From NCBI RefSeq assembly GCF_009914755.1, contig NC_060934.1: a stretch of DNA of 64,000 nt; one strand, 5' to 3'. Each line of letters opens with the position of its first letter. Within the stretch, counting starts at the first letter, position 1. Below, one piece after another: positions 2,379-5,865 of this stretch. The notes below the pieces were generated by a model. The model was given only the letters and a program-made list of their open reading frames with translations. It did not search any database and was not told where the DNA came from. The translations under genes and the position numbers were made by a program. This DNA is from the human T2T-CHM13v2.0 reference genome, Homo sapiens.

Positions 2379-5300
2379 TTTATTTTATTCATTTATTTAT
2401 TTTTATTTTTATTTTTTTGAGACAGAGTTTCGCTCAGCTGCCCAGGCTGGAGTGCAGTGGCGCGATCTTGCCTCATGGCAACCACCATCTCCTGGGTTCA
2501 AGCGATTCTCCTCTCTCAGCCTCCCAAGTAGCTGGGATTACAGGCACCCGCTATCATGCCCAGCTAGTTTTTGTATTTTAGTAGAGATGGGGTTTCATCA
2601 TGTTGGCCAGGCTGGTCTTGAACTCCTGACCTCAGGTGATCCACCTGCCTCGGCCTCCCAAAGTGCTAGGATTACAGGTGTGAGCCACCACACCCAGCAT
2701 TTCATATTTCATTTCTTTCATTTCAAGATGGAAACTCACTCTATCACCCAGGCTGGAGTATGCCACTGCACCTGACATTTCATTATTCATTTCATTTCAT
2801 TATTTCATTTCTTCATTTCATTGCACCCAGCATTTCATTATTCATTTCATTATTTCATTTCTTCATTTAGTTTCATTTCATTTCGAGATGGAAACTCGCT
2901 CAATCGCCCAGGCTGGAGTGCACCACCACACCCGGCATTTCATTATTCATTTACTTCATTTCATTTCGAGACAAGAGACTTGCTCTATTGCCCAAGCTGG
3001 AGTGCGCCACCGCACCTGGCATTTCATTATTCATTTCATCATTTCATTTTATTTCATTTAGAGATGAAGACTCACTCTACCGCGCAAGCTGGAGTGCACC
3101 ACCACACCCAGCATTTCATTATTCATTTCATTATTTCATTTCATCATGTCATGTCATGTCATGTCATGCCATGTCATTTCATTTCGAGACAGAGACTCGC
3201 TCTATCACCCAGGCTGGAGTGCGCCACTGCATCTGGCATTTCATTATTCATTTATTTCATTTCATTTCACCCAGCATTTCATTATTCATTTCATCATTTC
3301 ATTTCATTTCGTTTCATTTCCAGATGAAGACTTGCTCTATTGCCCAGGCTGGAGTGCGCCACCGCACCCGGCATTTCATTATTCCATTTTATCATTTAGT
3401 TTCATTTATTTCATTTCATATTTCATCTCATTTCATTTCATTTCGATGGAGACTTGCTCCATTACCCAGGCTGGAGTGCGCCACCACACCCAGCATTTCA
3501 TTATTCATTTCATTTCACCCGGCATTTCGTATTTCATTTCATCATTTCATTTCTCACTTCATTTCATTTCATTTGTTTCATTTCATTTCGAGACAGAGAC
3601 TCGCTCTATCGCCCAGTCTGGAGTGCACCACCACACCCGGCATTTCATTATTATTTCATTTTTTCATTTCATCTATTTCATTTCATTTTTCAATTTCATG
3701 ACGTAGACTCGCTCTAACACCCAGGCTGGAGTGCACCCAGCATTTCATTATTCATTTCATATTTCATTTCCCATTTCATTTCATGACAGAGACTCACTCT
3801 ATCACCCAGGCTGGAGTGCGCCACCCACATTTCATTATTAATTTCATTATTTCATTTCATCATGTCATGTCATTTCATTCTGAGATGGAGACTCGTTCTA
3901 TTGCCCAGGCTGGAGTGCAGTGGTGTGATCTCTGCTCCCCGCAACCTCTACCTCCTGGGTACAAGCGATTCTCCTCTCTCAGCCTCCCGAGTAGCTGGGA
4001 TTACAGGCACCCGCTATCATGCCCGGCTAGTTTTTGTATTTTAGTAGAGACAGGGTTTCACCATGTTGGCCAGGCTGATCTTGAACTCCTGACCTCAAGT
4101 GATCCGCCCACCTAGGCCTCCCAAAGTGCTAGGATTACAAGCGTGAGCCACTGCACCCAGCATTTCATATTCCATTTCATATTTATTTCATCATTTCATC
4201 TCCTTCATTTCATTTCAAAACGGAGTCTCACTCTATCACCCAGGCTGGAGTGCATCACCACACCCAGCATTTCATTATTCATTTCATTTCATTATTTCTT
4301 CATTTCATTTCATTTCACCTGGCATTTCATTATTCATTATTTCATTTCTTCATTTCATTTCATCCCATTTGAGATAGAGACTCGCTCTATCACCCAGGCT
4401 GGAGTGTGCCACTGCACCTGGCATTTCATTATTCATTGCATTATTTCATCATTTCATTTATTTCATTTTTTCATTTCATTTCATTTCACCCGGCATTTCA
4501 TTATTCATTTCATTATTTCATTTCATCATTTCATTTCATTTCATTTTGAGACGGAGACTCCCTCTATTGCCCAGGCTGGAGTGCGCCACTGCACCCAGAA
4601 TTTCATTATTCATTTCATTATTTCATTTCATCATTTCATTTGATCATTTCATTTCATTTCAAGACAGAGACTCGCTCTATCACCCAGGCTGGACTGCGCC
4701 ACCACACCTGGCATTTCATTATTCATTTCACCCAGCATTTCATATTTCATCTCATCATTTCTCATTTCATTTATTTCATTTCATTTCAAGACGGAGACGC
4801 GCTCTATCACCCAGGCTGGAGTGCGCCACCACACCTGGCATTTCATATTTCTTCATTTCATTTATTCCATTCCCATATTCCCATTCCCATTCAATTTCAA
4901 TCCATTTCATGACAGAGACTTGCTGCATTGCCCAGGCTGGAGTGCACCACACGCATTTCATTATTCATTTCATTATTTCATTTCACCATGTCATGTCATG
5001 TCATGTCATGTCATTTCGAGCCAGAGGCTTGTTCTAACACCCAGGCTGGAGTGCAGTGGCGCAATCCCTGCTCGCTGCAACCTCTGCCTCCTGGGTTCAA
5101 GCGATTCTCCTCTCTCAGCCTCCCAAGTAGCTGGGATTACAGGCACCCGCTATCATGCCTGGCTAGTTTTTGTATTTTAGTAGAGATGGGGTTTCATCAT
5201 GTTGGCCAGGCTGGTCTTGAACTCCTGACCTCAGGTGATCCACCCTCCTCAGCCTCCCAAAGTGCTAGGATTACAGGCGTGAGCCACCGCACCCAGTATT

Positions 5301-5865
5301 TCGTATTTCATTTCATTTCATATTTAATTTTGTTTCATTATTTCATCATTTCATTTCAAGACGGAGTCTCACTCTATCACTCAAGCTGGAGTGCATCACC
5401 GCACCCAGAATTTTATTATTCATTTCAATATTTCATTTATTTCTTCATTTCATTTCATTTCATTTCACCCGGCATTTCATTGTTCATTATTTCATTTCAT
5501 CCCATTTCATCTCATGTCATCTCATTTCATTTCGAGACGGAGACTTGCTCTATTGCCCAGGCTGGAGTGCACCACTGCACCTGGCATTTCATTATTCATT
5601 TCATCATTTCATTTCATTTCACCTGGCAATTCATTATTCATTTTATTATTTCATTTCATTTATTTCATTTATTCTCTTCATTTCATTCCATTTCATTTCG
5701 AGACAGAGACTTGCTCTATTGCCCAGGCTGGAGTGTGCCACCACACCCGGCATTTCATTATTCATTTCATCATGTTATGTCATGTCACGTCATTTCATTC
5801 TGAGACAGACTCGCTCTATCGCCCAGGCTGGAATTCAGTGGCGCGATCTCTGCTCACTGCAACCT
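2379..5865 (-). repeat. Composite tandem array: mini-Alu (~50 bp) + (ATTTC)n spacers with three full Alu copies and one partial copy
   Basis: About 19 copies of GAGAC/TGGAGACTCGCTCTATCACCCAGGCTGGAGTGCGCCACCACACCCGGC separated by degenerate CATTT repeats; full Alus at 2419-2698, 3882-4161, 5018-5297; partial at 5802-5865. Confidence 0.95.

What the first reader, a model, noticed from the sequence alone, without database searches (positions are those of the whole stretch)
2419..5865. Higher-order repeat: the full Alus in the array are copies of one parental element
Seen: the Alus at 2419-2698, 3882-4161 and 5018-5297 share non-consensus words (ttctcctctctcagcc, ggcacccgctatcatgcc, gctagtttttg, aaagtgctaggattaca). 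Alu starts are spaced 1463, 1136 and 784 bp apart (the fourth is partial, at 5802), with 10, 6 and 3 mini-Alus per block. The first mini-Alu after copies 2 and 3 shares the variant ggagtctcactctatcac...gtgcatcacc. Inference: a three-level hierarchy (5-bp pentamer, ~100-bp mini-Alu unit, ~0.8-1.5-kb block) produced by unequal crossover, not retrotransposition. Divergence between copies suggests the array is not very recent.
Basis: partly seen in the sequence, partly recalled or inferred. Interest (0 to 1): 0.7.

Follow-up and report, generated by a model that had tools for sequence, protein, structure and literature searches.

The report
Nested repeat from two recombined Alus
A 3.4-kb intronic repeat array on human chromosome 10, found in three related copies, holds Alu elements that are hybrids of two different parent Alus, so it likely grew by local recombination rather than by new insertions; it is a clear fossil of known repeat-making processes with no sign of function.

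Summary
The array is real: full Alus at 2419, 3882 and 5018, a stub at 5802, and 10/6/3 mini-units. It is not retrotransposition: a 53-bp shared word occurs at only 6 places genome-wide, all in three paralogous chr10 arrays.

'One parental element' is only partly right. A1 is an intact member of a small Alu subfamily (6 of 6 marks). A2 and A3 keep its head-side marks but lack all four 3'-end marks, and there share rare variants with stub A4 and the minis. They are hybrids that switch inside one 24-bp identical stretch, the signature of Alu-Alu unequal crossover. Minis are likely the duplicated tail-to-head junction of the two parent Alus.

The copy inside TIMM23 has one block, likely a later contraction. 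The copy at chr10:50.81 Mb has 11/7/3 minis. Blocks are too irregular for a satellite-type higher-order repeat.

Verdict: an Alu-derived minisatellite plus Alu-mediated duplication; known processes, no function seen, low interest.

The parts
2377..2417 (-). A-rich tail of Alu A1, with a candidate decayed target-site duplication at 2385-2394
   Evidence: Sequence. The 10-mer at 2385-2394 recurs just after the head of 14 of 19 minis. The longest match of the same flank to 66 other Alu tails is 8 nt. Suggestive only.
2418..2698 (-). Alu A1 (parent Q): intact member of a minor AluS-like subfamily
   Evidence: Carries 6 of 6 marks found in 14-15 of the 15 best genome hits and in 0-5 of 53 background Alus.
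2699..3879 (-). Block 1: head flank plus 10 mini-units (84-160 bp), each an Alu 3' end fused to an Alu head, then an ATTTC-rich tract
   Evidence: The paralog at 50.81 Mb has 11 units.
3882..4161 (-). Alu A2: hybrid, Q head plus P-type 3' end; switch within 3952-3975
   Evidence: 0 of 4 Q 3'-end marks, 2 of 2 Q head marks; identical-interval check. Two variants shared with A1/A3 are absent from the paralog's A2, likely gene conversion in this copy.
4162..5015 (-). Block 2: head flank plus 6 mini-units
   Evidence: The paralog has 7. Unit 4786 reads as a join of the paralog's units 5 and 6.
5018..5297 (-). Alu A3: hybrid, head closest to A1, P-type 3' end; switch within 5088-5111
5298..5800 (-). 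Block 3: head flank plus 3 mini-units; the only block kept in the TIMM23 copy
5802..5865 (-). Alu A4: 3'-end stub, likely the remnant of parent P, cut at a 4-bp ACCT overlap (5862-5865)
   Evidence: Shares two rare variants with A2 and A3 (2 of 53 and 1 of 53 in background). Identical over 57 aligned bp in all three paralogs.
5862..6098 (+). 5'-truncated, oppositely oriented AluSp-like element fused head-to-head to A4, bounding the array
   Evidence: One search hit 5862-6084. Marks read by eye against the AluSp consensus shown. Junction shared by all three paralogs.

Best explanation
The array holds one intact Alu (A1), two hybrid Alus (A2, A3), a stub (A4) and 19 mini-units, and it likely grew in place from two different Alus lying tail-to-head, with no sign of function. 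Inferred steps: (1) Alu Q (A1) inserted at the tail end of an older Alu P, with a GAAAT-like sequence between them that expanded by slippage. (2) A short duplication of the P-tail/Q-head junction made the first mini-unit (about 38 bp of P's 3' end, 15 bp of Q's head, and a pentamer tract), which multiplied by slippage and unequal exchange. (3) Unequal crossovers between P-type and Q-type Alus, inside a 24-bp identical stretch, duplicated whole blocks and left hybrids A2 (early) and A3 (later). (4) A deletion between P and an inverted neighbour removed P's head. (5) Segmental duplication made three copies; the TIMM23 copy then lost two blocks and this copy lost two single units.
For: Subfamily marks: A1 has 6 of 6; A2 and A3 have 0 of 4 at the 3' end and 2 of 2 on the head side. 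The subfamily is dispersed: 80 exact hits of one 25-nt mark on 20 contigs, 3 of them these arrays. Half-trees disagree: the 3' half puts A1 inside the subfamily (100/96) and A2+A3 outside; the head half groups all 7 full array Alus (92/96). 0 of 43 minis carry the Q-type 3' mark, and 42 of 43 scored as carrying the P-type base, the exception being out of register. P-type states in A2/A3 extend to position 71, beyond what a mini covers and beyond A4's present end. The mini junction is near-unique: 34 of 34 matches with flank and 16 of 17 without fall in these loci. Order of events: flanks differ 0.8-0.9% between this copy and the 50.81-Mb copy and 1.5-1.8% to TIMM23; A1-A2 differ at 16-21 of 209 (Poisson p=3e-6 against the flank rate), so A2 predates the TIMM23 split.
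Against: P's head is lost, so P cannot be shown to have been an independent insertion. The link of the paralog's A2 to A1 beyond subfamily membership is thin: one rare base (0 of 15, 0 of 53), CpG decays and the shared flank; its distance to A1 (about 10%) equals the subfamily's pairwise median (10.5%). The head clade is not starred (92/96). The 3'-half tree has only 71 columns and does not group A4 with A2/A3. The 15 subfamily members were picked for likeness to A1. First-mini variants conflict among blocks, so the order of block events is not resolved. A1-A3 divergence (7-9 of 209) is not significantly above the flank rate (p=0.10). The mini junction has only imperfect microhomology (GTGC against GTGA). 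No ape or second human sequence was available.
Confidence: 0.78

Rival explanations
1. One parent (Q) duplicated in tandem first; the 3' end of one copy was then overwritten by gene conversion from a distant Alu, and that copy seeded A2, A3, A4 and the minis. A4 would be a truncated hybrid, not a second insertion.
For: A4's head is missing, so it cannot be typed. Conversion within the array is seen: A2 here has two variants that the paralog's A2 lacks.
Against: Needs an unprimed tandem duplication plus a conversion tract of at least 71 bp from a distant donor. A tail-to-head pair plus one crossover gives duplication and hybrid in one step, as in described Alu-mediated duplications (PMC9675761 passages).
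Confidence: 0.13
2. The single block inside TIMM23 is the ancestral state, and the extra blocks arose after the gene duplicated.
For: TIMM23 is the intact gene (hub table) and its array is the simplest. Its first mini lacks a variant shared by blocks 2 and 3.
Against: A2 differs from A1 four to five times more than the TIMM23 Alu does (16-21 of 209 against 4-5 of 207). The TIMM23 Alu groups with A1 against A3 (96/89) yet is followed by block-3 units, which is what a deletion join looks like. Minis within the long array differ by a median 17%.
Confidence: 0.06
3. The full Alus are independent retrotransposed insertions into an AT-rich microsatellite.
For: A2 is no closer to A1 than some subfamily members are. 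AT-rich tracts attract Alu insertions (established knowledge).
Against: A2 and A3 have no poly(A) tail, share A1's head flank and a private base, and switch parent in the same interval. The shared 53-mer is found nowhere else.
Confidence: 0.03

Closest known systems
Alu-derived minisatellites (Ahmed and Liang 2012, PMC3389668, parts 1-3 of 4 read; Jurka and Gentles 2006 seen only as cited there)
   Same: Tandem units made of Alu fragments, expanded locally and slowly. That paper counts 2,663 Alu-derived tandem repeats, 136 of them partial-Alu repeats beside a full Alu.
   Different: The unit here joins pieces of two Alus and carries a pentamer tract. 19-21 units, against a mean near 2.3. Too diverged for that survey's 95% identity filter; three flank words gave 0 hits in its supplements.
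Alu-Alu mediated tandem duplications with a chimeric Alu (PMC9675761, passages read)
   Same: Direct orientation, hybrid Alu at the junction, 24-bp identical interval (their median homology for recombination events is 17 bp), block size near their Alu median of 1,163 bp, further copy gains after the first event.
   Different: Old and repeated at least twice; the duplicated spacer is itself a minisatellite.
T2T composite repeats and AluSx3-WaluSat (bioRxiv 10.1101/2021.07.12.451456, passages read)
   Same: Alu plus adjoining repeat arrayed by unequal crossing over and spread by segmental duplication.
   Different: Only 3.4-3.7 kb with unequal, diverged blocks. WaluSat is a 64-nt non-Alu unit transduced by an Alu; here the unit is Alu-derived and no transduction is seen.
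ATTTC/TTTCA expansions in Alu A-rich tracts, SCA37 and FAME (PMC8773600 passages; PMC13125401 abstract)
   Same: Same pentamer, next to an Alu 3' end; 158 copies here and 175 in the long paralog.
   Different: Longest pure run is 4, against 31 or more in disease alleles. Host transcripts would read GAAAU, since the Alus are sense to the host genes; disease loci have the Alu antisense.

Membership tests
Alu-derived minisatellite | Head-to-tail units built from Alu sequence | tested here: met
   19 units parsed, each with an Alu 3' end and head.
Alu-derived minisatellite | Units match each other locally, not dispersed copies | tested here: met
   Junction pattern: 34 of 34 and 16 of 17 genome matches in the three paralogs.
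Alu-derived minisatellite | Short direct repeats flanking the founding unit | tested here: inconclusive
   Only an imperfect 3-of-4 match at the junction.
Alu-derived minisatellite (VNTR sense) | Copy number varies among people | not testable with these tools
   One genome only; paralogs differ (19, 21, 3 minis).
Alu-Alu mediated duplication | Chimeric full-length Alu at the junction | tested here: met
   Mark switch in A2 and A3; Fisher p from 0.0025 to 5e-9 for the four A1 comparisons.
Alu-Alu mediated duplication | Both parents in direct orientation flanking the duplicated segment | tested here: inconclusive
   A1 and A4 are direct and flank the array, but A4 now ends before the switch interval.
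Alu-Alu mediated duplication | Identical stretch at the switch | tested here: met
   24 bp identical in A1 and A3, one private change in A2.
Satellite-type higher-order repeat | Blocks with the same unit number and order, more alike than the units within them | tested here: not met
   10/6/3 units; best cross-block unit scores 60-72 against 84-95 for orthologous units.
Independent Alu insertions | Own poly(A) tail and target-site duplication per copy | tested here: not met
   Only A1 has an A-tail. Duplications cannot be read for A2/A3, which have microsatellite on both sides.
SCA37/FAME-type ATTTC expansion | Long pure ATTTC run transcribed as AUUUC | tested here: not met
   Longest run 4; orientation gives GAAAU in all three hosts (hub table).

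The most novel reading that the evidence does not exclude
The locus is a still-active proto-satellite: a target-site-seeded GAAAT/ATTTC tract caught between two Alus has been amplified at three nested levels and still changes length in people, with long alleles moving into the TIMM23 intron by exchange between paralogs and altering its splicing or expression, or seeding a pure ATTTC expansion.
Probability: 0.07. Interest if true: 0.6.

Novelty: new member of a known kind. Interest (0 to 1): 0.25.

Why it matters
As it stands it is a readable case of how two neighbouring Alus can give rise to a microsatellite, a minisatellite and block duplications at one site, and the three paralogs order the events. 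The 2.6-2.8 kb length difference also tells the TIMM23 intron from its duplicates. It would matter more only if length varies among people and affects TIMM23 or its paralog; nothing here shows that.

Tried and rejected
Naming A1's subfamily: I recalled AluSq10, but its consensus lacks the marks, and three mark words gave 0 hits in that paper's consensus list; left unnamed.

Placing the TIMM23 deletion after its first mini: 8-10 changes in about 230 bp against 6 in 336, p=0.12-0.27; not shown.

Target-site duplications for P and for the inverted neighbour: the tail-side word of each occurs once in the window; the partner copies are likely lost with the deletion.

Minis as donors of the A2/A3 3' ends: rejected, since P-type states extend past the mini's length. 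WaluSat identity: rejected on unit type. A disease-type ATTTC tract: rejected on run length and strand.

A larger unbiased Alu sample was not obtained, so the background is 53 Alus from the window and from the flanks of 15 loci. Paper searches listed no description of this array (listings only). The 10q11.22 duplicon paper has 0 mentions of TIMM23B or PARGP1 in its main text.

Full report
Observation. The sequence and a unit parse give full Alus at 2419, 3882 and 5018, a 3'-end stub at 5802-5865, and 10, 6 and 3 mini-units between them, all on the minus strand. Each mini is about 38 bp of Alu 3' end joined to 15 bp of Alu head, followed by an interrupted ATTTC tract. Some tracts hold a still shorter head-only unit (8 here). 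A 53-bp stretch spanning two of them matches 6 places in the genome within one mismatch, all in this array or its paralogs.

Paralogs. Both unique flanks find three near-full-length copies, this one included: this one (W); C10:46.874-46.875 Mb, inside TIMM23 by the hub's table (T); and C10:50.812-50.816 Mb (B). T and B both lie 4.4 kb behind a Tim17-family exon; that B is TIMM23B is my recall. B has 11/7/3 minis. T has one A1-type Alu, the three block-3 minis and the stub. Flank divergence is 0.8-0.9% for W-B and 1.5-1.8% to T. A paper on this region dates the splits among human pericentromeric AGAP copies to 1.4-5.7 million years and puts AGAP4 and AGAP6 in one clade (PMC11534156, passages), which fits W-B.

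Two parents, not one. Over the head-side 209 bp, A1 and A3 differ at 7-9 sites and A1 and A2 at 16-21; background Alus differ by at least 12%. Over the 3'-end 71 bp, A1 differs from A3 at 20-22 and from A2 at 18-19 sites (Fisher p 7e-8, 5e-9, 0.0025, 1e-4). The 15 best genome-wide matches to A1 explain why. They share six marks (14-15 of 15; 0-5 of 53 in background), four at the 3' end and two on the head side. A1 has all six. A2 and A3 have the two head marks and none of the four 3' marks. These 15 were selected for likeness to A1, but one mark has 80 exact copies on 20 contigs, so the subfamily is real. At the 3' end A2 and A3 share two rare variants with A4 (2 and 1 of 53 in background), and 0 of 43 minis carry the Q-type mark. 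The switch lies in a 24-bp stretch identical in A1 and A3. Separate trees agree: the 3' half puts A1 within the subfamily (100/96) and A2+A3 outside; the head half groups all seven full array Alus (92/96, not starred).

One word is a subfamily feature (5 of 15 members) and a second is partly so. Two private changes in W's A2 are absent from B's A2, which keeps the subfamily state while retaining neighbouring marks. The simplest reading is conversion of W's A2 by A1 or A3 (inference). Without them B's A2 is about 10% from A1, no closer than subfamily members are to each other (median 10.5%). Its descent from A1's parent rests on one rare base, CpG decays and the shared head flank, and implies that the first block duplication came early in Q's life.

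Mechanism (inferred). Q inserted at the tail end of an older Alu P. A 10-bp word at the far end of A1's tail recurs after the head of 14 of 19 minis; the same flank matches 66 other Alu tails by at most 8 nt, while 22 of those 66 Alus show 10 nt or more between their own flanks. This may be Q's decayed target-site duplication and the seed of the pentamer; it is suggestive only. A short duplication across the P-tail/Q-head junction gives the mini directly, with no need for an internal deletion of a full Alu, though the two routes give the same product. Crossovers between P-type and Q-type Alus duplicated blocks and left hybrids, as described for Alu-mediated duplications (PMC9675761, passages). 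P was later cut at a 4-bp overlap with an inverted AluSp-like neighbour; A2 and A3 keep P-type sequence beyond the present cut. After the segmental duplications T lost two blocks: A2 is far older than the T split (p=3e-6), and T's Alu groups with A1 (96/89) yet leads into block-3 units. W lacks two units that B has; one W unit reads as a join of two B units. The order of block events is not resolved, because first-mini variants conflict.

Function. None is indicated. The hub table lists no functional element, and the array is intronic in PARGP1 and TIMM23. The pentamer is the SCA37/FAME motif, with 158 copies here, but the longest pure run is 4 against 31 or more in disease, and host transcripts would read GAAAU rather than AUUUC (PMC8773600, passages).

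Comparison and novelty. Alu-derived tandem repeats number in the thousands, including 136 partial-Alu repeats beside a full Alu (PMC3389668, parts 1-3 read). Arrayed composites and WaluSat are described for T2T (bioRxiv 2021.07.12.451456, passages; its supplements are closed and may list this array). Searches listed no description of this locus, which is weak evidence of absence. Blocks are unequal and diverged, so it fails the test for a satellite-type higher-order repeat while working like a nested duplication. Verdict: a new member of known kinds, interest 0.25.

Noticed in passing
window 2418-2698; L006-L020: A1 belongs to a minor AluS-like subfamily with six clear marks (80 exact hits of one 25-mer genome-wide). 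Three mark words are absent from the consensus list in PMC3672193 supplement 1; it may be named in finer classifications I could not see.
   Followed up: partly
window 5802-6098: Head-to-head inverted Alu pair whose centre was deleted at a 4-bp overlap; shared by all three paralogs.
   Followed up: partly
window about 9093: Homology to both TIMM23-type paralogs stops inside a truncated Alu (8961-9088), likely the junction of the duplicated segment with PARG-derived DNA.
   Followed up: no
G000:C13:43823418-43823446: The only exact match to the mini-type Alu tail/head junction outside the three arrays; possibly an independent event.
   Followed up: no
L006 (C17:39.13 Mb) and L007 (C17:48.38 Mb): The two loci hold near-identical sets of Alus, so they are likely a chr17 duplication and count as one observation among the 15 subfamily members.
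   Followed up: no
window 3144-3182, 3862-3874, 4987-5014, 5771-5792: CATGT variant pentamers mark the tract before A2, A3 and A4, and also the middle of block 1 before unit 3184, hinting that a fourth full Alu once stood there.
   Followed up: partly
window 11716-11837: 56-bp unit in 2.2 copies, 92% alike.
   Followed up: no
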